The notes below the pieces were generated by a model. That model did no database searches. It was not told where the DNA came from and saw only the letters and a program-made list of their open reading frames with translations. From a virus (taxonomy: Duplodnaviria > Caudoviricetes): a DNA stretch of 57,282 nucleotides. The translations under genes and the position numbers were made by a program. The stretch spans positions 1 through 57,282 of IMG/VR virus record IMGVR_UViG_3300037780_000037. One strand, written 5' to 3'. This document shows, piece after piece, positions 16,347 to 35,416 of this stretch (position 1 is the first letter of the stretch; each line of letters opens with the position of its first letter).

Positions 16347-17789
16347 ATGGCCAAGCAAACAGTAGGCGTCGGATCGACAGCTAATGACGGCACAGGCGAT
16401 TCGTTGCGTGCTGGCTTCGTCAAGGTCAACGACAATTTCACCGAGTTATATGGTCCGATCGTGACAACGCCGGTTCCGGTCGGGCTGGTGTTTTCGGAGA
16501 ACTTCGAGGGATCGAGCTATGACACCGATGTGATTCGGCAGTTTTTCGCGACAGTCACGCACGACACGGGCAACGATCGACTCACGCTGACGGGCACGAA
16601 TCCAGCAATACGACTTGATAAGACGACGCTAGGGCTTGAGGTTGGCCAGTGGTATTCGCTGGTAATCGAGTGGGATGCAAATACTGCCGACATGGCTCAA
16701 GCGGTTGGCAGTTGGACCAATGCAGCGGCACGAACCACGTTTTACAACGATGGTGTGACTGGTGTTCTGATTTGGCAGCAAGAAGACGGAACGGACGCGA
16801 ATGTGTCTCCAGTGGTCTTGTTTCGGGCTGCTACGGGATCGTCTTGTACGGCATACATCAATGACATAAAGCTATACGCTGGAGTCGTTGGCTACGTCAA
16901 CCAAATCTACCAAGATGGGCCGCTCGTTTGGGGCGAGGATGTTCGCGTCACAAATAGCTTCTTAGCCAACGGCGTCGTTATCGGGAATGATATTGTTGTA
17001 ACGCTGACTGGCGGTGGTACGCATCCGGTTCTTATTGGCTCCGAAATTACAGGCAGCGGTGCGATTGATGCTTGCATTGCGATTGGGGAAGGAGCCAGCC
17101 TGACCAGTGACGAATCATTTGGAGGCTCGAACAATCCCGAGAGAGTTGTTATTGGACGATCGGCACAGGCTGGTTGCTGGCGTAATACCGTTGTCGGTGC
17201 ATTTGCTCACGCTCTCGACACGTCAGCTTCGGCTTGGGGCTTCGGTGCTTGCAGCGAGGTTAGCCACGGCAACGCATTAAGCCGTGGAGCCTACATTCCG
17301 CATGAAACAGGCGAGGCAAACCTTACGCTGTTTGCTGATTACGATTTGGTGCTTGGCAATGGGACCATGCACCGCTGCGATCAGTCACCCGCAAGCGTTA
17401 AGTACGGATCGGCATTGACGACCGAGGAAGACACGGGAGTCACGCCGAGTGGGACGGAGTGTAAGGTTCGTGGCAAGGATGCTTTCGACGCGAGAGCCAC
17501 GCCAAGCGATACGAACATCGCAGGCGGTCATATTGCTGTTTGTGCTGGTCGTGGCACTGGAAGCGGAGTTGGCGGCAAAGTCCGATTGCAGACTGCTCCC
17601 GCAGGATCGAGCGGAGCAGCGAAAAACGCATGGGCGACAGCAATCGAAGTTGACGCGGTGGCAACAGGTGGCAGCGAGGAAACGCGATTCCTTTTGCTGG
17701 ACCTGACCGATGGCACTTTGAAACGAGTTAGTTTTGGTGCGGACGATTCAGCCGGAACCGGATTCAAGACGTTAAGGGTGGCAAACTAA
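16347..17789 (+). CDS. Tail fibre/receptor-binding protein
   Basis: N-terminal GSTANDGTGDSLRAGF.KVN.NF.ELY attachment motif; IG/VG beta-repeat (YadA-like) segments. Confidence 0.7.
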   Translation: MAKQTVGVGSTANDGTGDSLRAGFVKVNDNFTELYGPIVTTPVPVGLVFSENFEGSSYDTDVIRQFFATVTHDTGNDRLTLTGTNPAIRLDKTTLGLEVGQWYSLVIEWDANTADMAQAVGSWTNAAARTTFYNDGVTGVLIWQQEDGTDANVSPVVLFRAATGSSCTAYINDIKLYAGVVGYVNQIYQDGPLVWGEDVRVTNSFLANGVVIGNDIVVTLTGGGTHPVLIGSEITGSGAIDACIAIGEGASLTSDESFGGSNNPERVVIGRSAQAGCWRNTVVGAFAHALDTSASAWGFGACSEVSHGNALSRGAYIPHETGEANLTLFADYDLVLGNGTMHRCDQSPASVKYGSALTTEEDTGVTPSGTECKVRGKDAFDARATPSDTNIAGGHIAVCAGRGTGSGVGGKVRLQTAPAGSSGAAKNAWATAIEVDAVATGGSEETRFLLLDLTDGTLKRVSFGADDSAGTGFKTLRVAN

Positions 17790-21548: not shown

Positions 21549-23924
21549 ATGCCTGATTATACTGTTTCCGGTTCTTTACCAGATGATCCTAATAGCAACC
21601 AACCTCCTAAGCGGACTCGGGCAGGCCAAGTTCCGTTAAAGGATTTGATTCGCGAACAGGTTGAAAACTTTGTAGGTGAAGACCGGAAACAGGCAGAGCA
21701 GTTAATCAAGGAAGTTCTCAACGATCTCTACCAAGAGAAACTAGTTGAGTATGAGGAAACCAAATCTTCTTTCCAGGAAGTGCTTGGGAACTTTGGAATT
21801 AAAGGTAGATCAATTGGTACCTTTAAGACCAATATGAAAAAGATTCTCGAAAAATCTGACACCGATAAGGTAAAGAAATTTGACGAGATGACTGAGTTCG
21901 CACGTAAGTATGCGGCTCAAATTCTACCAGAGGGTTCTGATGATGCTGAGGGATTAGCCAACGCATTAATTTCTAATTACCCACAGAGACCCAAAAAGCG
22001 TGACTTAGTAGGTGATGCTTTCAATCGTGCTATTGATATGGGTGCTTTTGGGGAGGACTATTTTGATTACTCAGTATTTAATCAAGAAAATCCTTCCCAA
22101 GAAGAAATAGCAGATTTACTTGCTTACAATACGGATCGTCGAAGACATGCAGAAATTAGGGATAAGATTCTAAACACTTCCTTCGATGATGATTACGATA
22201 AAGCAGAAGAACGGGGTGTTATGTCCGATGACCCCGATTCTTATGAACCAATCAATATTGATAATGAAAACACCGTTTCTGATCAATCAGACGAAGCTGC
22301 TGCTAGAACACCACCGCCTTCTTCCCAGGAAACTTCAGAAAGGTTGCCGTTAGATGATCTAGTACAGAATGAATTCTTCTCCCCAGAAGAAATGCAGGAA
22401 ATGCTTCGTGGTGCTAGAAGCGGCGGTAAAAAATCTGACGATTCTGATAGGATAGATAATCTTAGATTTTCAGCCGTTGAATCTATCGCCTCCCAATTAA
22501 TGTCTCGGGCGTTCGGTACCAGCTTCTATCCAGTTCTAACAGCTTTACGTACAGCACGCGAAGTTACTAAATTAGAAACTGATGAAGATGTTGGTATAGG
22601 AGATGTAATTCGCTTCACTACCGATTCAACAGGTAAATTATTAACAAGAGGTGCTGATGCTTTAGGATTAGGAAGTATTGGGGAAAGCATTAGTAAGATG
22701 CTCGGTTTTAGTGATGAATCATCCCTAGAACATACGGGAGCTATGCCTTTAGCAGATTTGCCATCAGATGATTTGTCCCGTGCTGCTCAGGACCTTAGTG
22801 GTGCTGCTTCATCTTTAGATGCTTCGTCAGATGTTTTAGATAGCCTTGCAGAGAATGGCGGTTTCGGTGGAGGTGGTGGTGATAATATAGACCCCAGTGG
22901 TTTCAATACGCCCGATGATGACGACCCTGAAAATGAAGATGAAATGTCACCGGCTGAAATTATTGCAGGTTTGGCAGGATTAGGTGCTATCGGTATTATC
23001 GCCGGTACAGTTGGTAAACATGTATTTAGCACCCTTAGTGATACGGTATCGGATCAAGTTAGATACACATCTCAATTAGCTTATAATTCGATGGCATCGC
23101 CAGGGAGTGTGTCTGGTGTTCAAATGGCTGGACAACCTTTTAAGGCTGCTGCGGGTGTAGCTAACGCTTTTTCGCCTATCGCTGGTGGTGTAGCGGGTGC
23201 AGCAATTGGTAAAGCTCTTGGCCCCGGTATAGGTAAAGTCGCTGGCGGTATTGCTGGTAAAACAGCAGCAGGAGGTGTGGGGCGTGCAGTGGGCGGAGCT
23301 ATTGGCTCATTTATACCTATTCCATTTGTGGGAACTTTAATAGGTATTGCTGCTGGAGGAGTCATAGGTGATATGATTTCCAGCACGGTCGGTGCATCGA
23401 TAGATATATTGAAGTCTATTGATGAAGGTATCCAAGAATTGTCGGTAACCTTAACACCTTTCAGTTCTGATTTAGTAGGTGCAACAGTTGAAGCTGACAT
23501 AGCTCGATTAGAAGCACAGATGAGACAAGCTGATCAACTAGGAGGGTTGTTGGCCGAGAATGTTAGGTCAAGAAGCGAGTTTGAATTAGCCGTAACAGAT
23601 TTGGGAACTCAAATAGCTTACGCTATGACTCCGATGATGACCCAATTATATGATTTACTAACACCACTAGTTTCTATAGCATCTACTAATGTGAGACAAG
23701 GTGTTGATATATTAAATGCTATTAATCAAATATCAGGAGTCTTTGGTATTAGTATTGGGAACACTCTTGATGATGTTACTAAGTTATTGAATTTAATTGC
23801 TGGTAACACTAAAGACGATGTTGCATTTATGCAAGAGCTTGATGATTTTCTCAACCCTCAAACCAACCCACTTGATCCAAAGATGCTTACTAACGTAGGT
23901 GCGTTCGGGGGCTTTACATTATGA
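21549..23924 (+). CDS. Tape measure-like protein
   Basis: Gly/Ala-rich hydrophobic repeats (GGAIGSFIPIPFVGTLIG) and a helical C-terminus; follows the tail tube gene. Confidence 0.65.
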   Translation: MPDYTVSGSLPDDPNSNQPPKRTRAGQVPLKDLIREQVENFVGEDRKQAEQLIKEVLNDLYQEKLVEYEETKSSFQEVLGNFGIKGRSIGTFKTNMKKILEKSDTDKVKKFDEMTEFARKYAAQILPEGSDDAEGLANALISNYPQRPKKRDLVGDAFNRAIDMGAFGEDYFDYSVFNQENPSQEEIADLLAYNTDRRRHAEIRDKILNTSFDDDYDKAEERGVMSDDPDSYEPINIDNENTVSDQSDEAAARTPPPSSQETSERLPLDDLVQNEFFSPEEMQEMLRGARSGGKKSDDSDRIDNLRFSAVESIASQLMSRAFGTSFYPVLTALRTAREVTKLETDEDVGIGDVIRFTTDSTGKLLTRGADALGLGSIGESISKMLGFSDESSLEHTGAMPLADLPSDDLSRAAQDLSGAASSLDASSDVLDSLAENGGFGGGGGDNIDPSGFNTPDDDDPENEDEMSPAEIIAGLAGLGAIGIIAGTVGKHVFSTLSDTVSDQVRYTSQLAYNSMASPGSVSGVQMAGQPFKAAAGVANAFSPIAGGVAGAAIGKALGPGIGKVAGGIAGKTAAGGVGRAVGGAIGSFIPIPFVGTLIGIAAGGVIGDMISSTVGASIDILKSIDEGIQELSVTLTPFSSDLVGATVEADIARLEAQMRQADQLGGLLAENVRSRSEFELAVTDLGTQIAYAMTPMMTQLYDLLTPLVSIASTNVRQGVDILNAINQISGVFGISIGNTLDDVTKLLNLIAGNTKDDVAFMQELDDFLNPQTNPLDPKMLTNVGAFGGFTL

Positions 23925-25788: not shown

Positions 25789-26124
25789 ATGTCGGATTTT
25801 ATTGTTAATGAACTAGACGAGAGCTTGATCAACTTGAAAGACGGTAGCGGTAAGACTATCGGTTCTGTTGAAGCTGTAGACGTTATCGACTTCTGGGTAT
25901 CAGCCCGTCATGTAGCTACTGAGAACGGTAATAAAGATGATTGGTTTATGTATTTCCAAGGGGACTTTAAGAAAGCGACGGGTGTTACTTTAAGTAAGAC
26001 CAACGCTGTTATGCTTTATCGTCATGCCTGTGAAGTTGTTGAGTCATTAAAAAAAAGTGGCTTCGACGAATCAGAGCATTACGAACCCTCCGATACAGCC
26101 CCAACTTCTCCGAAAGAGACCTAA
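25789..26124 (+). CDS. Tail assembly chaperone (short form, gpG-like)
   Basis: Contains the slippery run TTAAAAAAAAG near its 3' end. Confidence 0.7.
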   Translation: MSDFIVNELDESLINLKDGSGKTIGSVEAVDVIDFWVSARHVATENGNKDDWFMYFQGDFKKATGVTLSKTNAVMLYRHACEVVESLKKSGFDESEHYEPSDTAPTSPKET

Positions 26125-26315
26125 AGGTTGTCCAGTTCCTTCAGACTGCGATTGATGCTGAAGATGAATTACGGGAACGTACCAAAGCGTCCCAATTAAC
26201 ACCTGATCGTTACAAACAATTGTTAGTGTTAATTGGGACTAATGAAAATGAAGCGGAAACAGCACGGGCTCGTATGGAACTAGATCAGCGGAGTAGAAAA
26301 TCATGGCGGAAGTAA
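25789..26315 (+). CDS. Tail assembly chaperone, -1 frameshifted long form (gpGT-like)
   Basis: The -1 frame after the A8 run (26049-26056) is open to TAA 26313-26315 and fills the gap before the portal gene. Confidence 0.7.
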
Positions 26316-27547
26316 CCCAACAAGAACTCGCACAGGTATTTACAGCGGATTATGAACCAACAGGGTTTATAAGAAACTACATGCCTGCTGCTCCGCATCA
26401 TCGCCCAGTATTTACTACTTGGGCTATTGAGCAAATGCTGCAAGACGCTCGTATTAATTTTGGTCTTGAGCTAATCAAAGGCCCAATACACGCATTCACC
26501 AAATTCTTTTCTGAAGAAGAATCTAATAATCCAGCCGTTCATAAGATGCTAGTCGAATCGGATATTCGATTCCCTTATGTTGTAAAATGCGAGAACAAAC
26601 AAGTAGGTGATTTCATCCTCAGCAGTCTGCGAAGATTCTGGCAAACAGGTGCAATAAAAGCACTCAACGCAATTGAATGGGGATTCTCTGGCAGTGAAGT
26701 AATGTATAAGAAGGGCAAGTCCGGTGATAAGGATGTTCTATTATATGATAACCTTAAAGATTTAGACCCCCGTGACCTTGCTTGCGTTACTCAACGAGGA
26801 GGCATTGTTGGGTTTGAATTAAATCCGATGAAAACCAATCCAGAGTACATAGGTATTCCGAAAGGGTTTTGGCACGTACATGCTAGGGAACGCAACCGCT
26901 ACTACGGACAATCCCGCCTTTTCGGAGCCTATGGACCCTGGTGGGAAATTTGGGGTGAAGGCGGAGCCCGTGACATTCGGAGGAACTGGTACTATCGAAA
27001 CGCCTTCGACGGTGGCGAGATGCGGTACCCGCTCGGTTACACCCAGCTACCAGACGGTACGAAGATCAGTAACCGCGACTTAGCTTTGGAAATGCTATCC
27101 AAGAAGCGGTCGGGGGGTTACATGGTTTTCCCAAATCAAGACCTAAATGGTAAACCTGCGTGGGAGTATATTCCCGCTGTAGCGTCAGTTGAGCCACAGG
27201 GCCTACAAAGCTATCTGGCGACACTTTCCGACGAGGAGCTAGAAGGACTCGGAATCCCGCCCGAAGTGATTCAGGGAGGGGCTGCGGGCCTTGGATCATC
27301 ATCTGGTCGAGAGATTCCAATGATCGCTTACTTTTCTACGCTACAAAAGGTTGTAGACTTCTTGATTCAGGATTTCTCAGCCCAAATACTGGACTTTATC
27401 ATCCCCCTCAACTTCCGAGAGTTGCCATTTTACGAGGTGGTACCAGTAATCCCGTATCGAGCCTACGAAGAAGAAATGAAAAAGCAAATAGGCGAGGACA
27501 AACCTTCTTCCCAGGAACCTACTCCGGCGAAGCCAGCTAAGGAATAA
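26303..27547 (+). CDS. Portal protein (Mu gp29/DUF935-like)
   Basis: M..DARI, AI.WGFS..E..Y, and YYGQSRL...Y.PW motifs. Confidence 0.85.
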   Translation: MAEVTQQELAQVFTADYEPTGFIRNYMPAAPHHRPVFTTWAIEQMLQDARINFGLELIKGPIHAFTKFFSEEESNNPAVHKMLVESDIRFPYVVKCENKQVGDFILSSLRRFWQTGAIKALNAIEWGFSGSEVMYKKGKSGDKDVLLYDNLKDLDPRDLACVTQRGGIVGFELNPMKTNPEYIGIPKGFWHVHARERNRYYGQSRLFGAYGPWWEIWGEGGARDIRRNWYYRNAFDGGEMRYPLGYTQLPDGTKISNRDLALEMLSKKRSGGYMVFPNQDLNGKPAWEYIPAVASVEPQGLQSYLATLSDEELEGLGIPPEVIQGGAAGLGSSSGREIPMIAYFSTLQKVVDFLIQDFSAQILDFIIPLNFRELPFYEVVPVIPYRAYEEEMKKQIGEDKPSSQEPTPAKPAKE

Positions 27548-27553
27548 ATTCCA

Positions 27554-28966
27554 GTGTTCCTAATCAATGGTACGTACAAATGCTTGGAACCGAACGACGT
27601 TATCAAGGCGTTGCAGAATGAAGGTCTGCCCACGCATCTCGTAGAAAAAGCTAACTCCTGGACCGTACATCACGGACCTGTGCCGAACACTGGTTACTTT
27701 TTAATTTCTCATTCAGACTTTCAAAACATTAAAAATGTAGAGTTACCTACTCTAACACTAACTATAAAAGACCGGAGTGGTAACACAGTAGAGTTTGAAA
27801 ATCTGACACTTACAGCAGCTACTAATGTTCTTGGTAAAGCAGATACTAAAGGCAGCATTATACTGATTAAGATTGAAGATTATCGTTGGTGGATGAAAAG
27901 AATCTACTGTGGTGATGTAAAAGCTAATTGGGTTGCGACAAACGACGATTTTAATAACAACTATTTACAAGTTGATACTACTAATTCAGGATCGTTCTAT
28001 ACAGTAGCACAAATCTTGTCATCAATATTAAGTACGTTTAGGTCCGATGCTAACCATACTTCATTTAATAACGCTACATATGGTTCCGCAGCAACGTATA
28101 GCGATACGTTAAATAATATAGACTTTTCAGGTATGACAGTGCTGGATGCACTCAACACGTTATGCGAGACTTGTAGACTAAACTATATTATTAAACCGAA
28201 TGGACAAGTTTATTTTAATACTGGGTTTGCTACATGGCCTACATATGATACTGAGTTTATTAACAGTATTGAGTTGGGGTCGCCACTACCATCTACTATA
28301 ACAGCCGTAGCTCAAGATCGAGAATATGAACTATTTGATGACCGATGCAGCAATATTAGGCCACAAACAACATATAACTATGATCATACTGTATCGTCGG
28401 GAACAATTAACAGTACGTACCTTATTAGAGCACCCTACATAGTACAATCTGATTCTTTAAGTAACACAACAGTAGTTAATGGTGTTCTAGCAACTATAGC
28501 AGCAAGATATGTGGATATTCTTAAAGCTCGGCCAAGAATATCCTACTGCCAAGATTATGTAAACTTTCATGACAGCATCAATTTTGGATTAGATGAAGTA
28601 GTCTATTTCAATAAAGGTGCTGGTATGATATCTATGGCTGTAGGGAAAGAGTTAGAGCAATACAAATTAAACTATACTGACCCACCGTTTCCCGTTTATC
28701 ACGCAGACCCACATGGAATATTTCTTTACAGATTTACTCTCAAGCAGGAATGGTTCAACAACATTGCATTAAGTGATATATTTCGACACGATGGAACTGA
28801 TACAGGTTATGATGAGTCAGTAAGAGACCCATTCAGTATCTTTGAAGATTTGAGTGTAGGCGATTCTGGTTGGTGTATTGAAGTATGCGGATTCTATTAC
28901 GCTATACAAGCACCTTGTTATGACCCATCTGATCCAGCACCTGATCCTGATCCACCACCTGATTGA
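27554..28966 (+). CDS. Tail tip/baseplate hub-like protein
   Basis: I.I.DYRW, 'G.TVLDAL..LC' hub-like pattern; Pro/Asp-rich tail. Confidence 0.55.
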   Translation: MFLINGTYKCLEPNDVIKALQNEGLPTHLVEKANSWTVHHGPVPNTGYFLISHSDFQNIKNVELPTLTLTIKDRSGNTVEFENLTLTAATNVLGKADTKGSIILIKIEDYRWWMKRIYCGDVKANWVATNDDFNNNYLQVDTTNSGSFYTVAQILSSILSTFRSDANHTSFNNATYGSAATYSDTLNNIDFSGMTVLDALNTLCETCRLNYIIKPNGQVYFNTGFATWPTYDTEFINSIELGSPLPSTITAVAQDREYELFDDRCSNIRPQTTYNYDHTVSSGTINSTYLIRAPYIVQSDSLSNTTVVNGVLATIAARYVDILKARPRISYCQDYVNFHDSINFGLDEVVYFNKGAGMISMAVGKELEQYKLNYTDPPFPVYHADPHGIFLYRFTLKQEWFNNIALSDIFRHDGTDTGYDESVRDPFSIFEDLSVGDSGWCIEVCGFYYAIQAPCYDPSDPAPDPDPPPD

Positions 28967-29475
28967 TAATGCCGAGAAGACATGGACCTAGCGGAGAGTG
29001 TGGGTGTTGTGTAACTCCTTCGAGTAGCAGCAGTAGCTCATCGTCTAGTTCGAGCAGTTCGAGTTCATCATCATCCAGTTCATCATCATCATCATCATCA
29101 TCATCCAGTTCTAGCAGTAGTAGTTCTAGTTCAAGCAGTTCATCAAGTTCGAGCAGTAGCAGTTCATCTAGCTCTAGTTCAAGCAGTTCATCATCGAGTG
29201 TGCCTAGCTCAAGCAGTAGCTCAAGTTCATCATCTAGTGGTTCAGATGTTCCAGTAGTAACAGACTGCATTGATGGTTTAACTTGTGTTTATGAATGGGA
29301 TGGAACATCGTGGGCCATTGTCACACCTTCAGATAGAGTTTGTGCAGTAAAGAATGTAGGAGGCGTAGAAGAAATCTGTTTATGCCCTCCAGCATTTGGT
29401 CTATCGCCAGGATCGTTTGAAGGTGAACAAACTACAGAATCTTGTACTGAAGATGGTGGAGGAGGTCCGTTATGA
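28963..29475 (+). CDS. Poly-serine, Cys-containing protein (putative glycosylated virion appendage)
   Basis: CGCC, then 60 Ser, VP, 11 Ser, then a Cys-rich C-terminal domain. The start could be 28969. Confidence 0.8.
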   Translation: MIMPRRHGPSGECGCCVTPSSSSSSSSSSSSSSSSSSSSSSSSSSSSSSSSSSSSSSSSSSSSSSSSSSSSSSSSSSSSVPSSSSSSSSSSSGSDVPVVTDCIDGLTCVYEWDGTSWAIVTPSDRVCAVKNVGGVEEICLCPPAFGLSPGSFEGEQTTESCTEDGGGGPL

Positions 29476-29963
29476 TAAAATGTTCTCACGCAAAAAATGG
29501 GTTATGCGAAGTAAGTACTAAACTTGCTAATATTGACGTACCTCTTGCTGAAGACGCTTGTTTAGCTTGTGTTAATCACGATCCAGCACAAAGCATTAAT
29601 CATGTTACAGCGTCTAAAGCTATCTATGTTTTAAGAAAACAAAATTTAGAAGTACCTATCCACTTATATAAACATATTAAACCAATAGAAAATAAGGGAC
29701 CAGGAACCGAATTATCGAAATTAATTTCTTGGTTCAAAGCTATTACAGACTCAAAATGTAAATGTAATAAACGAGTACGTAAAATGAACCAATGGGGGCC
29801 GGATGAATGCGAGCGACGAAGACCCACTATTCGTAGATGGTTGAGGCATTCAGCACATACTTACAAGGTTCCGTATAACAGTACAGTAGCTGATTCATTG
29901 ATAACAAGAGCAATCAAAAATGCAAGAGCCAAAATGGGTAGTAGCAGTAGCAACAGCACCTAG
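29472..29963 (+). CDS. Cys-rich protein; paralog of 32774-33052
   Basis: KGPG...C.C.KRV..MN.WGPD.CE..R.TI..WLR motif shared with the 32774 ORF. Confidence 0.8.
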   Translation: MIKCSHAKNGLCEVSTKLANIDVPLAEDACLACVNHDPAQSINHVTASKAIYVLRKQNLEVPIHLYKHIKPIENKGPGTELSKLISWFKAITDSKCKCNKRVRKMNQWGPDECERRRPTIRRWLRHSAHTYKVPYNSTVADSLITRAIKNARAKMGSSSSNST

Positions 29964-30684
29964 AAAAGACTGTACGCTAAACCTTTGCGTAGAGCACATA
30001 CGTGTTTGCGGTTGGGAACCTATCGTATTTGCAGAACCTAACAGCACTGAAACAGATTGTCAGACTATATGGAATGAGCAACGAAAAGGTGTTTGGTATA
30101 ATTGGTTACACTCTGCTAAGTGGTGTTTAGAAAATACAGATGCAGACGCTATTCTAACAATCCAAGATGATACTATACTTCATCCAGACTCAAAGACGTT
30201 CGCAGAGAAATGTTTATGGCCTGCACCGGATTGCGGGTTTTTATCGTTGTACACGCCCAAGCACTATTCTTTCTACAAGATGAAAAGTCTAAGAGACCCA
30301 GGGGTAAATCGTATACGGACGAAGGGGTTATGGGGTGCCTGTGCTTTAATCTTTCCCAGGGAAGTCTTAGGGCGTGCAGTTAATTCCAGAATAGCCAACC
30401 AATGGTTAGGGGCTCCACCGAGATCAGGTAAACCATCAGTCTATGAGAAACGCAAACTTGATCCGACGCTTGTAGTTAATAGCGATACGGCTATTGGTAA
30501 AATAATGAACTCAATGGGTCGAAGCATGTGGTTCATCGACCCATCACCAGGATTTCATGCGGCTAAATACTCTACCTGTAGTCATGGCGATAATACTGGC
30601 AGACGTAATGCTTATAGACCAGCTAACTTCGACATACCACTGGAAGATCAGGTACCTTTAAGAGAGTGCTATGACATTAAATGA
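29920..30684 (+). CDS. Glycosyltransferase (GT-A-like)
   Basis: IQDD (DxD-like) motif, WGACAL, SD..IG and a C-terminal His. Confidence 0.7.
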   Translation: MQEPKWVVAVATAPRKDCTLNLCVEHIRVCGWEPIVFAEPNSTETDCQTIWNEQRKGVWYNWLHSAKWCLENTDADAILTIQDDTILHPDSKTFAEKCLWPAPDCGFLSLYTPKHYSFYKMKSLRDPGVNRIRTKGLWGACALIFPREVLGRAVNSRIANQWLGAPPRSGKPSVYEKRKLDPTLVVNSDTAIGKIMNSMGRSMWFIDPSPGFHAAKYSTCSHGDNTGRRNAYRPANFDIPLEDQVPLRECYDIK

Positions 30685-31304
30685 AATATGAAATAACATT
30701 CCTCGACAAGAAATTTAGTATCACCACTAACAACACTCATATAGCCAAATCGTATAAAGCAAATAAAATATACGAGCATCAATTGTTACATAGCTTATTA
30801 CGGTGTAAAGGCTTGTATGTAGATGTAGGTTCTCATGTAGGCAACCACGTTATTTTCTTATCTTTATTTTCTTCTTTTGAGCATATAGTAGCGTTTGAGC
30901 CGTGCCCTGAGCATTTTGACATGCTTAAAAGAAATATAAAAGATAACAATTTACAAAATGTAACTGCTTATAACTTAGCTATAGGAGAAGAAGATAGCTC
31001 AGTTAACATAATTAGAAAAGGCCCAAACGACGGCAGCTACAGTGTAACTAATGGATCAGAAGTCAATGTTAAAACTTTGGATAGTTTCAGTTTACAACCT
31101 TCTGTAATTAAATATGATGTTGAAGGTTATGAAGTAAAAGCACTAGAAGGTTCTAAAAATACTATCTTAACTAACAAACCAAAAGTGTACATTGAGATGA
31201 ATGACAACAAAAATGCTATACAGTCTATTGTAACAAGTATGGGTTATAAACTGAATAGGTTAATTAAGATGGGTAGCCCGATGGCAGAGTTTGTTTATGG
31301 TTAA
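30681..31304 (+). CDS. FkbM-family methyltransferase
   Basis: VDVGSHVGNH, AFEP and IKYDVEGYE motifs. Confidence 0.9.
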   Translation: MKYEITFLDKKFSITTNNTHIAKSYKANKIYEHQLLHSLLRCKGLYVDVGSHVGNHVIFLSLFSSFEHIVAFEPCPEHFDMLKRNIKDNNLQNVTAYNLAIGEEDSSVNIIRKGPNDGSYSVTNGSEVNVKTLDSFSLQPSVIKYDVEGYEVKALEGSKNTILTNKPKVYIEMNDNKNAIQSIVTSMGYKLNRLIKMGSPMAEFVYG

Positions 31305-32058
31305 AATACGTATAAAAAAAAGTGTTGAGTCGCTAAAAGACCTTATTAATAACTTAAATAACCAAGATAGAGTTACTTATGTGAGGTTTGGAGATAACGA
31401 TGTTTTTCATATGTATGGTAAAGACGCAAAACAAAGGGTTATAAAAAAACCACTAGGTAATAACAAAACAATATACAGTAAGCAATTGCAACTTGATTTG
31501 AAAATTAGTTTTGACATTGAACATCCTCATTTTATGAAAGCAGTGGGTTGTAGATGGCCTATAGAAGCTGGGATGATGAAAAACGGCTTTTCTGGTAACA
31601 AAATACCAAGAGTTGTTAATCATTATGTTGGCAGACTTACAAAAACGAGGGAATTCTACCACCCTATTCTTTTTTCTTATTTGGCTTGTTTAAGACCTAG
31701 TATATGGAACTACTTTAATTGCAGGCATATCAAATCAAGAGATAAGGTATTTGTTGGTTGCAACAATCCTGATCAATTAAAACAGTTAGGAAGTTTTAGA
31801 GAATGGGTTTCTACACCCGCGAAAAACGCAACTTCTGAAACAGATATTATATTTGATAATTTATGTAAATGCGTAAAACCTCACGACATGGTGATTTTAG
31901 GTTGTGGTCAACTATCTAGGGTTCTAGCTGGAAAACTATGGCAAACTAATATCCCTTTACATGTTTTAGACATTGGTAGTCATATAGATGGGTACGCAGG
32001 AAAAACTACAAGAAAGTATTTAAGAAAGTACAGTGAATGTCTACAGCAATCAGTCTAG
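31297..32058 (+). CDS. GT-D fold-like glycosyltransferase (DUF1792-like)
   Basis: YVRFGDND, ILGCG...RVL and LDIGS motifs. Confidence 0.7.
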   Translation: MVKIRIKKSVESLKDLINNLNNQDRVTYVRFGDNDVFHMYGKDAKQRVIKKPLGNNKTIYSKQLQLDLKISFDIEHPHFMKAVGCRWPIEAGMMKNGFSGNKIPRVVNHYVGRLTKTREFYHPILFSYLACLRPSIWNYFNCRHIKSRDKVFVGCNNPDQLKQLGSFREWVSTPAKNATSETDIIFDNLCKCVKPHDMVILGCGQLSRVLAGKLWQTNIPLHVLDIGSHIDGYAGKTTRKYLRKYSECLQQSV

Positions 32059-32777
32059 CGACAATCCCTGGTAGAGAATCAGGATTGTATAAGTCTTTAG
32101 AATGTCTTAGAAATCAAACAATTAAATTACCGATATACGTATACTCTCCAGAAGTATTAAAAAGGGCAGGTCGCTGCTTAGATCAACAGCTTATTAAAAA
32201 TATAGTTGATCAATTTGAAGATGTTAATTTGTTTATAACTAAAGAAGATAATGGTAGTATAGATAAAATCTACCACGCACTAGATTTGCCTTTTGATAAT
32301 ATTATAACAGTAGATGATGATATGTTCTACCCAAATATGTTGGTAGAGCAGTTATTGTTGAACGCTGACAAGCATCCTAACACAGCCCTGTGTTACAGAG
32401 GTAAACAACTAAAAGGACAGCCCTATGATCAGACACAACTCTTAGAAGGTAATAGAGATAGAAAATATCCTAATAATAAAACAAGGCATGTGTTTAATGT
32501 TCGGGTAGATATAATAACAGGTGTTTGGGGAGCTTTATACCCTAGAAAATTAATAGATAAAGACGCACTGCTGAAGCTATCTAAACAATACCCAACAACA
32601 GATGATATCGTTATTAGTTACATATTAGCTGAGTGCAACGTAGATAGGTTGTTAGTGCATTTACCAAAAAGACCAAAGCCGTTACCTCAACACGAAGTTT
32701 ACGAGTTATACAAGATTAATAAAAACAAAAAGAAAAATGATGTTGCGTTAAATAACCTCTTTTATAAGACAAGATGA
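32037..32777 (+). CDS. Glycosyltransferase family 2-like
   Basis: ISLATIP.R, L..QT, ITVDDD..YP, G..GALY and DDI.IS motifs. Confidence 0.85.
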   Translation: MSTAISLATIPGRESGLYKSLECLRNQTIKLPIYVYSPEVLKRAGRCLDQQLIKNIVDQFEDVNLFITKEDNGSIDKIYHALDLPFDNIITVDDDMFYPNMLVEQLLLNADKHPNTALCYRGKQLKGQPYDQTQLLEGNRDRKYPNNKTRHVFNVRVDIITGVWGALYPRKLIDKDALLKLSKQYPTTDDIVISYILAECNVDRLLVHLPKRPKPLPQHEVYELYKINKNKKKNDVALNNLFYKTR

Positions 32778-33052
32778 TGAAAGGCCCTGGTGACCATTTA
32801 GCCAATCTAATTGATTGGGCGACACCGTTTCTGATGAACAAGGATCAGTGTGCATCCTGTCGCAAGCGTGTTAAGCTAATGAACATCTGGGGGCCGGATG
32901 GTTGTGAAATCAACCGAGAAACGATCCTAGAGTGGCTCAGACGGGCAGCACATGAATCAGGTGTGCCCTTTAATTCCATATTCGCCAACCTCATGATCAG
33001 TGAAGCAATACGTAGGGCTAGAAACGAAAAAACCCCGCCACCAGTTTCCTAG
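32774..33052 (+). CDS. Cys-rich protein; paralog of 29472-29963
   Basis: KGPGDHL...CASC.KRV..MN.WGPDGCE..RETI.EWLR. Confidence 0.75.
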   Translation: MMKGPGDHLANLIDWATPFLMNKDQCASCRKRVKLMNIWGPDGCEINRETILEWLRRAAHESGVPFNSIFANLMISEAIRRARNEKTPPPVS

Positions 33053-33060
33053 TGACGGGG
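33027..33060 (-). terminator. Intrinsic terminator for the helicase gene
   Basis: On the minus strand: CCCCGTCACTAG-GAAA-CTGGTGGCGGGG followed by TTTTTT. Confidence 0.8.
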
Positions 33061-33078
33061 CTCGACCACGTTCCTTGA

Positions 33079-34602
33079 TTATTCCTCTGTGGACTCAATA
33101 ACGTAGCTGAGAATGTGAATTGCTCTAGTCTCAGCAACATACTTCAGATTCCATTCCTGTAACCCGTTAGCCTTATCAATCAACTTAGGGTGGGGTAGCA
33201 AATGTGGTTTGAAGATGTAAACTCGATCCGCTTCCAACCCCTTAGCTTTATGCACGCTGCTAAGGACGATTGTATCTTTAATATCGGTATTGTCTTGGAA
33301 CAGCCGACCTAACTTGTTAATTAAGTCATTGGTTGTTTTGCAATCACCAGACAGTACGCGAATACAATCAACCTTATCGTTGAGAGCGATCAGCTTTTCA
33401 TCTACTCCATACTTGTACCTACGGAGAATTTTAGTTTCTTCCTGACTAGCGTACTCGTTGAGAGCATTAATCATCTTATCGACGTTGTTAGACTTTCCAG
33501 CCAGCTTTTCTACCAACTTGATAAGACCCTGCCCGATATCACGACCACGGATAACAACCTTAATTTCCTGCTTCAGCAATTTGAAAGCTAGGGATACCAA
33601 AGGTGCATTCGTTCGACAAAGTACCATAGTAGTCTGATCGGTGACAGCGACCGTTCTTAATTCCTCAATCAGAGCCTCACGCTGGACGTTGCGAACCTCA
33701 CCTTCAGGGTTCCCATCAGCAGCACGATAAGCAGGAACCAGTTTCTTAGCCTGCTCAACAATCTTCTTACCACAACGACGAGTCATCGTTAAAGGTAAGA
33801 TATCAACACCGCCACGATCCGCAAGCATTTCTTCCAACCTGCCCATACTAATTGAATCAGCACCAGCGAAACCATAGATAGCTTGGTTAACATCACCGAC
33901 GCAAATTACCTGATCGGATTGCATCATAACTAAGCCCTGCTGAGACCTGTTCAAATCCTGACACTCATCAACGATAAGACCGTCAATCTTACTGCATTTC
34001 ATTTGATGAAATACCGGCATCCAAATCATGTCACTGAAATCAACTACTTTGAAGTCATTGGAACCACTAGCAAGCGTTTTGTTGCAGTAATCCAGTAACT
34101 GGTCGGTAGTCAGTTCAGCTTCGATATCAAAACCTTCCTGAAGCGTCTGAATGTCGCCTGGAGCCAGTTCCAGCACCCCACCCGTTTCATAACCCAGCAT
34201 GTTAGCCCTAGCCAGATCAAGGACTTTAGTGACGGTATTACGGACAACGTAATCTTCAGACTTCTTAGGCTCACCAAACAGCCGGTCCATCACCTTGCGA
34301 TACTTCCAGCTATCGACTTTGATACCGCGACCGTGATTCATCTTGATGATGCTCAGACCGCTGCTGTGGCACGTAGACGCCTCACAGTTGGCTGGAACCT
34401 TCTTAGACAACTCAGTAGCGATTGCTTTGTTGAACGCTAGGAAACGGTACCTATCGATCCCCTGAGCCTGCACCCAGTCACGGATAGCTACTTGCTCATC
34501 CGAAAGCGTCATGTTGCGGGGAGTCCTGCCAACAGACCAAACCATCGTTGAAGTCTTCCCAGTACCAGCCAACGCCTTAACCATCAAATTTTTAGCCATC
34601 AT
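33079..34602 (-). CDS. UvrD/Rep-like SF1 helicase
   Basis: AGTGKT, VDECQD, VGD..QAIYGF.GA, RTNA, HKAKGLE and YVA.TRA motifs. Confidence 0.92.
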   Translation of the reverse strand: MMAKNLMVKALAGTGKTSTMVWSVGRTPRNMTLSDEQVAIRDWVQAQGIDRYRFLAFNKAIATELSKKVPANCEASTCHSSGLSIIKMNHGRGIKVDSWKYRKVMDRLFGEPKKSEDYVVRNTVTKVLDLARANMLGYETGGVLELAPGDIQTLQEGFDIEAELTTDQLLDYCNKTLASGSNDFKVVDFSDMIWMPVFHQMKCSKIDGLIVDECQDLNRSQQGLVMMQSDQVICVGDVNQAIYGFAGADSISMGRLEEMLADRGGVDILPLTMTRRCGKKIVEQAKKLVPAYRAADGNPEGEVRNVQREALIEELRTVAVTDQTTMVLCRTNAPLVSLAFKLLKQEIKVVIRGRDIGQGLIKLVEKLAGKSNNVDKMINALNEYASQEETKILRRYKYGVDEKLIALNDKVDCIRVLSGDCKTTNDLINKLGRLFQDNTDIKDTIVLSSVHKAKGLEADRVYIFKPHLLPHPKLIDKANGLQEWNLKYVAETRAIHILSYVIESTEE

Positions 34603-34733
34603 CTTTATCCCAGGAACATCCTGCGAGAAACGAAACAATGTCAGCAACAATGCCAACAACAATACTAAAGATACCCAATTCATCGGTTGGTCGCAAGAGG
34701 AAACTTGAAAAATTTTCTTTGGAAGAAACCCTG

Positions 34734-34762
34734 TTGACAACCCTGCGATCAACCGATACACT
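34734..34762 (+). promoter_or_regulatory. Sigma70-like promoter for the replication operon
   Basis: TTGACA-N17-TACACT. Confidence 0.8.
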
Positions 34763-34828
34763 CAATCGTGTCGGCCCAAATTCTGTTTCACAAACCCTTG
34801 CGGAAGGAACCTAGCATACGGAGGTACC

Positions 34829-35416
34829 ATGCCTATTAAGCGAGCCCAGTACACAACCCAGTCGAACAAAGGTTACTCGGGGAAGACCACCAAACTGAGC
34901 ATCAGTCAGTTCGTCCACTACCTTTTTGATATCAACGAATCCAGTCCACCAGATGGAAAGAAACTACGCGATGAAGACATAATCGAATCCGTTCGATCTG
35001 AATTCGGGACCAAACCAATTACGGTACGAAAGATCGCAGACCCCAATAGCAATTCTTCATTGAGTGCTCAGCGTGCTCGATATAACAAGACGAGACCTTC
35101 ACTTCTATCTATTAGGTATGACGGTAATGAACACCCTTGTAGAAATTACAACAGTAATATCGATATTGATGATCTACGGGTTAAAGCTTGGCGATACGGT
35201 ATCGTTGACCCCCGCCTATTTACTGTCGATGAAATCAAAGCAGTTTTGATTCACCAACAGGATAATCCAAGGAAGACTGAAAGGTTTGTATTACCTACTA
35301 GAGATTTAATAAAGGATCATCCTTATGGCAGTATAAAGTTTTCATCATCAGTAGGTCATTTACCACGTACACGGATCGATACAGATACTTTGGAGTTAAT
35401 TCGTGCGGATTCATAG
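34829..35416 (+). CDS. Hypothetical protein
   Basis: GGAGG SD; first gene after the promoter. Confidence 0.7.
   Translation: MPIKRAQYTTQSNKGYSGKTTKLSISQFVHYLFDINESSPPDGKKLRDEDIIESVRSEFGTKPITVRKIADPNSNSSLSAQRARYNKTRPSLLSIRYDGNEHPCRNYNSNIDIDDLRVKAWRYGIVDPRLFTVDEIKAVLIHQQDNPRKTERFVLPTRDLIKDHPYGSIKFSSSVGHLPRTRIDTDTLELIRADS

What the first reader, a model, noticed from the sequence alone, without database searches (positions are those of the whole stretch)
28963..33052. Putative phage virion O-glycosylation system: poly-Ser acceptor, three glycosyltransferases (one GT-D-like) and an FkbM methylase, bracketed by paralogous Cys-rich proteins
Seen: directly after the tail-tip gene, seven overlapping genes run poly-Ser protein, Cys-rich protein A, GT-A-like GT, FkbM methyltransferase, GT-D-like GT (RFGD..., DIGS), GT2, Cys-rich protein B. 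Known: GT-D (DUF1792) was defined in streptococcal serine-rich repeat protein (Fap1) glycosylation, and some actinophages glycosylate their virions. Inference: this is a self-contained pathway that builds a methyl-capped glycan on the Ser tract, giving a mucin-like virion appendage for shielding or adhesion. The Cys-rich pair may be adaptors that recruit the enzymes.
Basis: partly seen in the sequence, partly recalled or inferred. Interest (0 to 1): 0.88.

Follow-up and report, generated by a model that had tools for sequence, protein, structure and literature searches.

The report
Poly-serine phage tail glycosylation cassette
A phage gene cluster pairs a tail-end protein carrying a run of 60 serines with its own sugar-adding enzymes and a previously undescribed cysteine-rich docking domain, and the same pairing recurs in many uncultured phages and prophages, so it probably builds a sugar-coated, mucin-like tail thread.

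Summary
Seven overlapping + strand genes lie at 28963-33052 of a phage contig: a CGCC/poly-Ser/six-Cys protein, Cys protein A, a GT-A-fold glycosyltransferase (GT), an FkbM methyltransferase, a GT-D-fold GT, a GT2-like GT and Cys protein B.

- I fetched 33 viral loci through the Cys domain alone. In 26, a Ser/Thr-rich ORF sits directly upstream of the Cys gene, against 13 of 519 other ORFs.
- A GT follows the Cys gene or is fused to it. Fourteen loci carry the ORF3 type, seven of them fused. At least three others carry GT25.
- In two syntenic phages and in prophages of Pirellula-family chromosomes, the poly-Ser tract is the C-terminal part of a tail-end protein near the tape measure.
- The Cys module is a large uncharacterised family of 1544 cluster representatives. 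It has no Pfam or PDB match, and in longer proteins it is fused mostly to GTs.

Best reading (about 0.55): phage-encoded cytoplasmic O-glycosylation of a poly-Ser tail thread, with the Cys module as an enzyme-docking domain. No glycosylation was shown here. No GenBank phage carries the Cys protein A or ORF3 genes, and I found no paper describing the system.

The parts
27554..28966 (+). 470-aa tail-end protein of unknown family (context). Its homologues in L009 and L010 carry the CC motif, poly-Ser tract and C-terminal Cys domain as their own C-terminus.
   Evidence: No Pfam, PHROG or NCBIfam match. blastp to the L009 624-aa and L010 638-aa ORFs gives E 9e-25 and 2e-21. Its C-terminal 65 residues match the ORFs upstream of the poly-Ser genes in L007 and L003. 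The fused architecture is seen.
28963..29475 (+). Candidate acceptor protein, 170 aa: short N-terminus with a CGCC motif, a poly-Ser tract and a C-terminal six-Cys domain.
   Evidence: The same three-part architecture sits directly upstream of the Cys gene in relatives.
28999..29010 (+). CGCC motif (residues 13-16), just before the Ser tract.
   Evidence: A CC, CCC or CxCC motif lies within about 12 residues before the first Ser-rich stretch in 17 of 19 acceptor proteins listed.
29020..29238 (+). Ser tract: 60 consecutive Ser, then Val-Pro, then 11 Ser.
   Evidence: All six Ser codons are used.
29257..29472 (+). C-terminal small Cys-containing domain (residues 99-170).
   Evidence: It aligns with the C-termini of acceptor proteins from L002, L008, L009, L010, L011, L021, L029 and L049. 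A profile search of PDB found nothing.
29472..29963 (+). Cys protein A. It has an N module (invariant C4, C12, C30, C33; nt 29481-29570) and a C module (invariant G78, C96, C98, W108, G109, C113; nt 29694-29930).
   Evidence: 1544 cluster representatives at E <= 1e-3. Invariant columns come from the 38-sequence alignment A1. AlphaFold2 pLDDT 92.7, mostly helical. No fold match: Foldseek best E 1.4, VIA best Z 5.2. No significant Pfam family: the only row at E <= 1 is a chance-level zinc-finger match, E 0.039, 14.4 bits against a cut-off of 27.
29920..30684 (+). GT-A-fold glycosyltransferase of an unnamed family (ORF3), with a QDD motif at nt 30163-30171. D83 is invariant in the 18-sequence alignment A3.
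   Evidence: AlphaFold2 pLDDT 90.7. Foldseek matches: POMGnT1 5ggi E 3.9e-7, GnT-I, COLGALT1, mimivirus R655 and ppGalNAc-T2. It is fused to the Cys protein in relatives: P0020 is 54% identical, E 1e-107. A homologue lies next to, or fused with, the Cys gene in 14 of 33 loci.
30681..31304 (+). FkbM-family SAM-dependent methyltransferase.
   Evidence: PF05050 E 1.3e-14, TIGR01444 E 7e-26, phrog_8156 E 9.4e-26. Homologues occur in L008 and L013.
31291..32058 (+). GT-D-fold glycosyltransferase-like protein. The RFGDND motif (nt 31384-31401) and DIGS motif (nt 31969-31980) are invariant in its two relatives.
   Evidence: ESM Atlas structure search TM 0.70-0.80 to GT-D clusters. TIGR03728 E 0.002, far below the cut-off. 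Only 2 relatives besides the window's own protein, the third row, in a word-indexed search of 5.8 billion proteins. Alignment A4.
32037..32777 (+). GT2-like GT-A-fold glycosyltransferase with a DDD motif (nt 32313-32321).
   Evidence: PF00535 E 0.071, below the cut-off. ESM Atlas TM 0.81-0.86 to GT2 clusters. Coordinates.
32774..33052 (+). Cys protein B: the C module alone (Cys 26, 29, 44).
   Evidence: 49% identical to residues 75-152 of Cys protein A. A second Cys-domain ORF also closes the cassette in L003 (13105-13383) and in the L012 group (13451-13906).
33030..33063 (-). A 15-pair hairpin followed by a T run, between the cassette end and the convergent helicase gene.
   Evidence: Terminator-like sites overall are not more frequent than in shuffles.

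Best explanation
This is a phage-encoded, cytoplasmic protein O-glycosylation cassette whose substrate is the poly-Ser protein encoded at its head.

Inferred mechanism:
1. The acceptor belongs to the distal tail. It is a separate gene here and the C-terminal extension of the tail-end protein in relatives.
2. Its two or three adjacent cysteines mark the point where the folded tail protein gives way to a disordered Ser thread. That thread ends in a small Cys-stabilised knob.
3. Cys protein A is a two-module, probably metal-binding, helical protein. It works with the ORF3 GT-A enzyme, with which it forms one polypeptide in relatives. Together they dock on the acceptor and add the first sugar to Ser hydroxyls.
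4. The GT-D-fold and GT2-like enzymes extend the glycan. Cys protein B is a second copy of the docking module.
5. The FkbM enzyme O-methylates a sugar.

The result would be a mucin-like glycosylated tail thread.

Shown here: the gene content, the folds, the fusions and the conserved linkage. Inferred: everything about chemistry, order of steps, virion location and function.
For: (1) Linkage. I fetched 33 viral loci with the Cys domain alone. In 26 of them (21 of 28 after dropping five near-identical loci), the ORF ending at the Cys gene's start has at least 50% Ser/Thr in a 30-residue window. The figure for other ORFs of 100 aa or more in the same loci is 13 of 519. Fisher's exact test gives p = 1e-28, or 2e-23 dereplicated. 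The loci span 33-65% GC, and their Cys proteins are 26-52% identical to the window's.

(2) The gene after the Cys gene, or fused to it, is a GT. It is the ORF3 type in 14 of 33 loci, 7 of them fused. It is GT25 in L002, L009 and L012 and in the prophage L049.

(3) Fusions. P0020 is Cys protein plus ORF3. One search listed 120 longer proteins that carry the module, and 25 have a Pfam domain. Eighteen of those 25 carry GT families: GT2 in 11, GT4 in 2, GT25 in 3 (two of them with a sulfotransferase), and PF11051 with FkbM and PF11397 in one each.

(4) Tail association.
- In L009 and L010 the CC motif, poly-Ser tract and knob form the C-terminus of the homologue of the window's 470-aa protein.
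- In L049 a 775-aa ORF two genes after a tape measure protein (phrog_28, E 3.4e-80) has the same layout and is followed by the Cys gene.

(5) Both hydroxyl amino acids occur. Poly-Thr versions sit in the same position in L024 and in L026/L030.

(6) Neighbouring tailoring genes are glycan enzymes: methyltransferases, an NAD-dependent epimerase/dehydratase, a GT34-like domain, a GT2 fused to radical SAM, and a sulfotransferase.

(7) None of the seven proteins has a hydrophobic segment of membrane-spanning strength. The highest 19-residue Kyte-Doolittle mean is 1.38. This fits a soluble cytoplasmic pathway.

(8) The poly-Ser protein is the only Ser/Thr-rich ORF in the window (1 of 171).
Against: - Nothing here shows a sugar on the protein, or the protein in a virion.
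- Poly-Ser tracts also serve as plain flexible linkers.
- The GT-D and GT2 genes have no blastp homologue in any of the 33 loci. FkbM has one in only 2.
- 7 of 33 loci have no Ser/Thr-rich ORF upstream.
- In the poly-Thr loci, the genes after the Cys gene have no Pfam match and no profile similarity to ORF3.
- Of 20 downstream proteins scanned, 9 had no family and 2 had only sub-threshold matches.
- The Cys module is not exclusive to GTs. Of the 25 annotated fusions, 6 are to redoxin or peroxiredoxin domains and 1 to a phosphoribosyltransferase.
- The loci were found through one shared domain and share ancestry, so part of the linkage may be common descent and not repeated selection.
- The 470-aa 'tail' protein has no family match.
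Confidence: 0.55

Rival explanations
1. The Ser/Thr tract is an unmodified flexible linker of a tail fibre. The GT cassette next to it is a cargo ('moron') set that alters host envelope glycans, for example for superinfection exclusion or to release progeny from debris. Such cargo genes often sit beside tail fibre genes.
For: Conversion genes commonly lie next to tail fibre genes in temperate phages (established knowledge, recalled). Many carriers are prophages: 31 of 201 genomes of the Pirellula-MAG family have the Cys gene, and chromosomal regions were examined. The tailoring enzymes vary from locus to locus, as polysaccharide clusters do. GT25, GT2 and FkbM families are typical of lipopolysaccharide and capsule synthesis (Pfam descriptions).
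Against: - The cassette also occurs in genomes with their own DNA polymerase and helicase, such as the window and L008-L010.
- The acceptor, Cys gene and GT are joined by overlapping stop and start codons.
- The Cys module is fused to the GTs, and it always sits immediately after the Ser/Thr-rich gene: 26 of 33 against a background of 13 of 519.
- No membrane segments, flippase or polymerase genes were seen in the window cassette.
Confidence: 0.2
2. The enzymes glycosylate other virion proteins, such as capsid or tail tube, as in mycobacteriophages. The poly-Ser protein is only a neighbour.
For: Phage-encoded GTs glycosylate capsid and tail tube proteins in Che8, Corndog and Myrna (passages in PMC12363180 that cite Freeman et al. 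2023). The cassette lies at the end of the structural module.
Against: No other ORF in the window has a Ser/Thr-rich stretch. The conserved neighbour across loci is the Ser/Thr-rich gene, not the capsid gene.
Confidence: 0.1
3. The conserved core carries out a different modification of the Cys/Ser-rich protein, and the GTs are secondary. Candidates are redox or disulfide chemistry, radical-SAM cross-links, or phospho-sugar or sulfate addition.
For: The Cys module is fused to redoxin or peroxiredoxin domains in 6 of 25 annotated fusions. Radical SAM genes occur in the cassettes of L007, L009 and L049. A sulfotransferase is fused to GT25 in L049, and to GT25 together with the Cys module in P0177 and P0179. 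L007 gives a weak Stealth match (18 bits, below the cut-off).
Against: A GT is the most constant partner of the Cys module (18 of 25 fusions; 14 of 33 loci for ORF3 alone). The window's own cassette has no redoxin, radical SAM or sulfotransferase gene.
Confidence: 0.08
4. The GTs modify phage DNA (sugar hypermodification of bases) to evade restriction.
For: The cassette abuts the replication module in the window. A helicase gene lies at 33079-34761 on the - strand, and exonuclease and DNA polymerase genes lie downstream.
Against: In the prophages and in most loci the cassette lies inside the tail module, far from replication genes. No base-modifying enzyme such as a hydroxymethylase was seen next to it. 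FkbM and GT25 families are sugar and glycan enzymes.
Confidence: 0.03

Closest known systems
Virion glycosylation of mycobacteriophages (Che8, Corndog, Myrna; Freeman et al. 2023). Seen only through citing passages in PMC12363180 and PMC12691614. The paper itself is not held.
   Same: Phage-encoded GTs modify the phage's own structural proteins in the host cytoplasm.
   Different: There the acceptors are capsid and tail tube subunits. Here the candidate acceptor is a dedicated poly-Ser/Thr tail-end protein, with a Cys docking domain and an unnamed GT-A family. No homologue of the Cys protein or of ORF3 is found in 50,697 GenBank phage records. Glycosylation here is inferred, not shown.
Serine-rich repeat glycoprotein (Fap1/GspB) O-glycosylation in streptococci, including dGT1 = DUF1792 (GT-D) + GT-A CgT with a helical binding domain (PMC5063993; abstract and passages read).
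   Same: A Ser-rich acceptor is encoded beside several cytoplasmic GTs. The run of a GT-D-fold enzyme, then a GT-A enzyme, then a small helical module (ORF5, ORF6, Cys protein B) mirrors the domain order of dGT1. In both cases a non-catalytic helical part is needed or present beside the GT.
   Different: No GtfA/GtfB-type initiating pair, no accessory Sec export genes and no cell-wall anchor were seen. The acceptor is a homopolymeric Ser run, not dipeptide repeats. The helical module is Cys-rich and unrelated by fold search. The carrier is a phage, with a likely planctomycete host.
Giant-virus fibril glycosylation (mimivirus). The role is recalled; only the structural neighbour comes from a call.
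   Same: A virus-encoded, host-independent glycosylation set decorates a virion surface appendage. Mimivirus R655 (9crz) is among the structural neighbours of ORF3 (E 8.1e-6).
   Different: That is a eukaryotic virus with different acceptor proteins. The similarity is at the level of the general GT-A fold (TM about 0.43).
Polyserine linkers of carbohydrate-active enzymes in marine Gammaproteobacteria (recalled; not checked in a paper).
   Same: Long homopolymeric Ser runs, encoded by mixed codons, join folded domains.
   Different: Those linkers are not encoded beside a dedicated GT set. One longer Cys-module protein is named by its source as from a Porticoccaceae bacterium (P0213), which is only a hint of overlap.
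Terminal O-methylation of the Vibrio cholerae O1 antigen by RfbT (function recalled).
   Same: The window's FkbM protein gives a weak match to PF05575 V_cholerae_RfbT (E 4.7e-4, 20 bits, below the 27.9 cut-off). This offers a precedent for a methyl cap on a glycan.
   Different: The match is sub-threshold, and the substrate there is a lipid-linked polysaccharide.

Membership tests
FkbM methyltransferase family (PF05050 / TIGR01444) | Profile match above the curated cut-off. | tested here: met
   PF05050 55.2 bits against 22.7, and TIGR01444 91.4 bits against 37.7.
GT-D glycosyltransferases (DUF1792, PF08759 / PF22882) | Sequence-profile match to the family. | tested here: not met
   No PF08759 or PF22882 row at E <= 1. 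TIGR03728 (SP_1767 family) gives E 0.002 and 17.6 bits against a cut-off of 290.75.
GT-D glycosyltransferases (DUF1792, PF08759 / PF22882) | GT-D fold. | tested here: met
   The ESM Atlas model of this protein (pTM 0.85) aligns at TM 0.70-0.80 over 208-239 residues. The matching clusters have an aligned part that meets the bar for PF08759. The ten best feature hits share the family or clan. Both sides are predicted models, and I made no model of my own.
GT-D glycosyltransferases (DUF1792, PF08759 / PF22882) | Acidic metal-binding motif near the N-terminus (the form of the motif is recalled from the DUF1792 structure paper, which I did not read here). | tested here: inconclusive
   RFGDND at residues 32-37 is invariant in the protein and its two relatives. 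Whether it is equivalent to the family motif was not checked against a structure.
Glycosyltransferase family 2 (PF00535), GT-A fold | Profile match above the cut-off. | tested here: not met
   ORF6: 13.5 bits against 23.3, E 0.071.
Glycosyltransferase family 2 (PF00535), GT-A fold | GT-A fold with an acidic DxD-type motif. | tested here: met
   ORF6: Atlas TM 0.81-0.86 to GT2 clusters over residues 1-246; DDD at residues 93-95. ORF3: AlphaFold2 pLDDT 90.7 and Foldseek E 3.9e-7 to GT13, GT25 and GT27 structures; QDD at residues 82-84, with D83 invariant.
Serine-rich repeat glycoprotein system (accessory Sec locus) | GtfA/GtfB initiating pair, SecA2/SecY2 export genes and an anchored SRR adhesin. 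| tested here: not met
   None of the seven proteins matches such families in Pfam or NCBIfam. No membrane-spanning or anchor segment was found. Only the Ser-rich acceptor and the GT-D-fold enzyme are shared.
Mycobacteriophage virion glycosylation genes | Homology to the GTs of glycosylated phages, with capsid or tail tube acceptors. | tested here: not met
   tblastn of Cys protein A and of ORF3 against 50,697 phage records gave no match at E <= 1e-3. megablast of 26000-35000 gave no match. The GT-D, GT2 and FkbM proteins were not searched against that collection.
Cys module family (unnamed; defined here by alignment A1) | N module with four invariant Cys, and C module with G..C.C..WG..C. | tested here: met
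   Cys protein A has C4, C12, C30, C33, G78, C96, C98, W108, G109 and C113. Cys protein B has the C module with three Cys.

The most novel reading that the evidence does not exclude
The Cys module is a general docking domain that brings a changing set of enzymes to one substrate. The enzymes include GTs of at least five families, methyltransferases, a sulfotransferase and redoxins. The substrate is the cysteine-stapled base of a multimeric poly-Ser/Thr tail thread.

Phages of Planctomycetota and neighbouring phyla would thus build, in the host cytoplasm, a mucin-like tail filament that is sometimes methylated or sulfated and ends in a small Cys knob. The filament would serve as an adhesin, or as bait for the host's glycan-capturing surface.

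This would be a new class of phage receptor-binding appendage and a viral counterpart of serine-rich repeat glycoproteins.
Probability: 0.3. Interest if true: 0.9.

Novelty: new variant of a known kind. Interest (0 to 1): 0.8.

Why it matters
If true, phage self-glycosylation extends beyond actinophage capsids to a dedicated, mucin-like tail appendage. The lineages that carry it are almost unstudied: phages and prophages of the Pirellula family and related uncultured groups.

It would also give a function to two things:
- a large orphan domain family (1544 cluster representatives) with no Pfam, PDB or literature match found here;
- an unnamed GT-A family.

The system is compact and has a genetically encoded homopolymeric acceptor. 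That makes it directly testable by co-expression. It could also be useful as a simple O-glycosylation module.

It bears on an open question as well: how phages attach to planctomycete cell surfaces.

Tried and rejected
- Close-relative scans of viral contigs with ORF5 and with Cys protein B alone found nothing. The 38-sequence alignment was too diverse for the pattern scan, so I used an 8-sequence alignment.
- Sequence searches of PDB gave only chance-level rows or none. This covered ORF3, ORF5 and ORF6, the Cys family profile and the knob domain profile.
- Fold searches with the Cys protein A model gave no convincing match. Foldseek's best was E 1.4. VIA-align's best was Z 5.2 over residues 75-157, within the range the tool calls common for helical models. 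The N module was barely tested by these searches.
- Complex prediction of Cys protein A with the whole poly-Ser protein returned no verdict (score 0.02, mark 0.32). It is evidence neither for nor against binding.
- A programmed frameshift or readthrough joining the 470-aa gene to the poly-Ser gene is unlikely. The stop is TGA followed by TAA, and the poly-Ser frame has several stops just upstream.
- Profile comparison of the ORF3 family with the genes downstream of the Cys gene in poly-Thr loci was negative. With the L009 GT25 it was marginal (E 0.02).
- A word-based search for longer proteins with Cys protein B alone found none. The alignment-based search did find them.
- There are no tRNA genes in the window, and no excess of promoter-like or terminator-like sites.
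- Eight literature searches found no paper that describes a poly-Ser phage tail protein with a GT cassette, or the Cys domain. The library lacks most subscription journals, and supplements are closed.

Full report
**What the window is**

The window is a 57,282-bp linear virus record, estimated 53% complete. Its structural genes include:
- a terminase large subunit (7274-8809);
- a major head protein (11429-12592);
- a tail-fibre-like protein (16347-17789);
- a tape-measure-like or lysin-like protein (21549-23924).

A helicase on the - strand (33079-34761), an exonuclease and a DNA polymerase follow. It has no near match among 50,697 GenBank phage records and no tRNA genes.

**The observation**

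Each overlaps the next by 4 to 44 nt. The first overlaps the stop codon of the upstream 470-aa gene.

The poly-Ser protein reads as follows:
- a short N-terminus with CGCC at residues 13-16;
- 60 consecutive Ser, then Val-Pro, then 11 Ser;
- a 72-residue C-terminal part with six Cys.

All six Ser codons are used. Selection is therefore on the protein. The Leu/Glu/Asp-rich ORF on the opposite strand (28902-29270) is a by-product of those codons. The poly-Ser protein is the only one of 171 window ORFs of at least 60 aa with half or more Ser/Thr in any 30-residue window.

**The enzymes**

- FkbM (30681-31304) passes the curated cut-offs of PF05050 and TIGR01444.
- ORF5 (31291-32058) has no Pfam GT-D match. 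Its match to the SP_1767 family is far below threshold. A word-indexed search of 5.8 billion proteins found only two relatives besides the window's own protein. The ESM Atlas model of this very protein aligns at TM 0.70-0.80 with clusters that carry PF08759, many of them viral.
- ORF6 (32037-32777) is below the GT2 cut-off. It aligns at TM 0.81-0.86 with GT2 clusters and has a DDD motif.
- ORF3 (29920-30684) has no family at all. An AlphaFold2 model built from 18 sequences (pLDDT 90.7) is a GT-A fold. Its best solved neighbours are POMGnT1, GnT-I, the collagen galactosyltransferase COLGALT1, mimivirus R655 and ppGalNAc-T2 (E 3.9e-7 and weaker, TM about 0.45-0.57). D83 of its QDD motif is invariant.

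None of the seven proteins has a membrane-type hydrophobic segment.

**The Cys proteins**

Proteins A and B share 49% identity over 81 residues. Protein A belongs to a large family: 1544 cluster representatives at E <= 1e-3, and 237 at E <= 1e-10.

An alignment of 38 members shows two modules:
- an N module with four invariant Cys;
- a C module with invariant G78, C96, C98, W108, G109 and C113.

The model is confident (pLDDT 92.7) and mostly helical. It has no convincing solved neighbour and no Pfam family beyond a chance-level row.

The family also occurs inside longer proteins:
- P0015, P0020 and P0084 are Cys protein A joined to an ORF3-type enzyme. P0020 residues 166-432 are 54% identical to ORF3, E 1e-107.
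- P0125 is a GT4 enzyme with the C module at its end.

A search for longer proteins found 403 with the module at E <= 1e-6. Of the 120 listed, 25 carry a precomputed Pfam domain:
- 18 carry GT families: GT2 in 11, GT4 in 2, GT25 in 3 (two of them with a sulfotransferase), and PF11051 with FkbM and PF11397 in one each;
- 6 carry redoxin or peroxiredoxin domains;
- 1 carries a phosphoribosyltransferase domain.

The module is thus a mobile partner of enzymes, mostly GTs.

**Linkage in relatives**

A pattern scan of viral contigs with an 8-sequence alignment of the Cys family returned 33 loci. I called ORFs in them and compared them with the window's proteins.
- An ORF3 homologue lies next to the Cys gene in 7 loci and is fused to it in 7 more.
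- FkbM homologues occur in 2 loci.
- The GT-D and GT2 proteins have none.

The striking result concerns the gene before the Cys gene. In 26 of 33 loci it has at least 50% Ser/Thr in a 30-residue window, often an uninterrupted run of 8 to more than 40 Ser. After dropping L005, L014, L015, L027 and L030 as near-identical copies, the count is 21 of 28. The background is 13 of 519 other ORFs of 100 aa or more in the same loci. Fisher's p is 1e-28, or 2e-23 dereplicated.

L024 and L026/L030 have poly-Thr instead. L023 is only borderline: its upstream ORF just reaches 0.50 Ser+Thr, and its 12-Thr run lies in a gene further upstream.

The seven loci without such a tract have Cys-rich proteins or truncated context upstream.

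The acceptor proteins share more than composition:
- A CC, CCC or CxCC motif sits just before the first Ser-rich stretch in 17 of 19 listed.
- Many end in a similar small domain with a C..C.W.W.G..W...C...C.C...G.F.G....C pattern.

**Tail association**

L008, L009 and L010 are syntenic with the window. They run from the 619-aa and portal-like genes through the Cys gene to the convergent helicase. In L009 and L010 the homologue of the 470-aa protein simply continues into CC, 38-39 Ser and the knob, as one ORF of 624 or 638 aa. In L002, L003, L004/L006 and L018 the acceptor gene closes a run of tail genes after a long tape-measure-like ORF (read by position, not by family match).

**Host**

A scan of one genome per prokaryotic species found 9 loci. 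Eight are in records titled Pirellula sp. MAG. Three of these (L035, L036, L037) show a CCC-Ser-rich ORF before the Cys gene.

With the family profile, 31 of 201 genomes of that MAG's family have a match. In a phylum-wide sample only 2 of 301 do, and one of those is the MAG itself.

I fetched ten chromosomal regions:
- Eight (L049-L056) have a 775-974-aa ORF with a Ser/Thr-rich region of at least 90% directly before the Cys gene.
- L058 has a weaker candidate 444 bp away.
- L057 has none.

In L049 this ORF lies two genes after a tape measure protein (phrog_28, E 3.4e-80). It has CRCC before the first Ser run and ends in a knob-like sequence. It is followed by the Cys gene, a GT25-sulfotransferase fusion, a GT2 and a radical SAM enzyme.

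The system is therefore common in prophages of this planctomycete family. The window's own host is unknown. Its GC content is 44%, against about 50% for those contigs. Source names of longer homologues also include Verrucomicrobia and Porticoccaceae.

**The variable part**

I scanned 20 proteins encoded after the Cys gene in other loci.
- 9 match families above the cut-off: GT25 three times, methyltransferases, a GT34-like domain, an NAD-dependent epimerase/dehydratase, radical SAM, a GT2 fused to radical SAM, and DUF6492 fused to a methyltransferase.
- 2 match only below the cut-off.
- 9 match nothing.

The conserved core is acceptor, Cys protein and first GT. The rest is a shifting tailoring set, of which the window's FkbM, GT-D and GT2 genes are one version. 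A second Cys-domain gene closing the cassette, as in the window, also occurs in L003 and in the L012 group.

**Interpretation**

The cassette is a cytoplasmic O-glycosylation system for a Ser/Thr thread that hangs from the tail end. The Cys module is the part that ties enzymes to that substrate.

The adjacent cysteines at the base of the thread recall the cystine knot that staples the three chains at the end of type III collagen. That comparison is recalled, not tested. If tail-end proteins are trimeric, the motif could staple three threads together.

The order ORF5 (GT-D fold), ORF6 (GT-A) and Cys protein B (helical) resembles the streptococcal dGT1. There a DUF1792 domain and a GT-A domain with a helical binding domain carry out successive steps on Fap1 (PMC5063993; abstract and passages).

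What is shown here is gene content, folds, fusions and linkage. Glycosylation itself, the sugar, the order of steps, the virion location and the function are inferred. I put the reading at about 0.55.

The main rival is a plain linker beside a host-glycan conversion cassette, at 0.2. Glycosylation of other virion proteins, another kind of modification, and DNA modification share most of the remainder.

**Comparison with what is known**

Phage-encoded glycosylation of capsid and tail tube proteins is known in mycobacteriophages. I know this from passages citing Freeman et al. 2023; the paper itself is not held. Ser-rich repeat adhesins with GT-D enzymes are known in Gram-positive cocci.

The following were not found in the Pfam, PDB or GenBank-phage searches run for each: the Cys module, the ORF3 family and the knob domain. 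PDB sequence and fold searches returned nothing for the Cys module and nothing beyond the general GT-A fold for ORF3. Eight full-text searches found no paper describing the combination with a homopolymeric Ser/Thr tail protein.

I therefore rate the system a new variant of a known kind, with a sizeable chance that it is a new class of tail appendage.

Noticed in passing
window 26303-27547: A 414-aa ORF after the tape-measure-like gene matches portal families: phrog_113 E 7.1e-10, and PF06074 E 1.7e-4, just below the cut-off. It is 62% identical to ORFs in L009 and L010. The ORF in the usual portal position after the terminase (9274-10506) matches nothing in Pfam or PHROGs. Which one is the portal is open.
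   Followed up: partly
window 13052-16288: A 1078-aa protein carries a concanavalin A-like lectin/glucanase domain (PF13385, E 2.3e-11). It is a likely carbohydrate-binding fibre or decoration protein.
   Followed up: no
L004 vs L006; L009 vs L010; L019 vs L020: Closely related loci differ in the length of the Ser-rich tract. The acceptor is 291 aa in L004 and 428 aa in L006, which has many more SSSNP-type repeats. Runs are 39 against 38 Ser, and 10 against 6 Ser. This repeat-length variation resembles that of mucins and serine-rich adhesins.
   Followed up: no
L003 9543-10004; L007 9456-10004: In these two acceptors the C-terminal Cys domain appears circularly permuted. The PG.F.GE part comes before the C.W.W.G..W part.
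   Followed up: no
L024 344-1930; L026 8022-9776; L030 8025-9779; L023 4129-6126: Poly-Thr replaces poly-Ser in the tail protein directly before the Cys gene in L024, L026 and L030. In L023 the 12-Thr run lies in a gene further upstream. The genes after the Cys gene have no Pfam match and no similarity to ORF3. Their enzymes, if any, are unknown.
   Followed up: partly
proteins P0225, P0235, P0242, P0249, P0252, P0259: The Cys module is fused to redoxin or AhpC/TSA ('peroxiredoxin') domains in six proteins. This hints at thiol-disulfide chemistry on the Cys-rich acceptor.
   Followed up: no
L049 8517-9989; proteins P0177, P0179: GT25 is fused to a sulfotransferase domain directly after the Cys gene in a planctomycete prophage. 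In P0177 and P0179 it is fused together with the Cys module. The glycan may be sulfated in some lineages.
   Followed up: no
window 29920-29963: Cys protein A and ORF3 overlap by 44 nt, with ORF3 in the +1 frame, while relatives encode both as one polypeptide. Stand-alone homologues (P0004, P0008) end with the same Ser-rich tail as the window's Cys protein A, so the split looks real. I did not examine whether some ribosomes shift frame to make a fused protein.
   Followed up: no
window 28902-29270 (- strand): A 122-aa ORF rich in Leu, Glu and Asp lies opposite the Ser tract. It is most likely an artefact of the reverse complement of Ser codons, not a gene.
   Followed up: partly
L028 8135-8899: One of the seven loci without a Ser/Thr-rich tract still has a CCC motif inside the Cys-rich protein before the Cys gene. 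The cysteine motif may be more constant than the Ser tract.
   Followed up: no
window 33030-33063: A 15-pair GC-rich hairpin with a T run lies on the - strand between the cassette end and the convergent helicase gene. It is a likely terminator that serves the helicase transcript.
   Followed up: no
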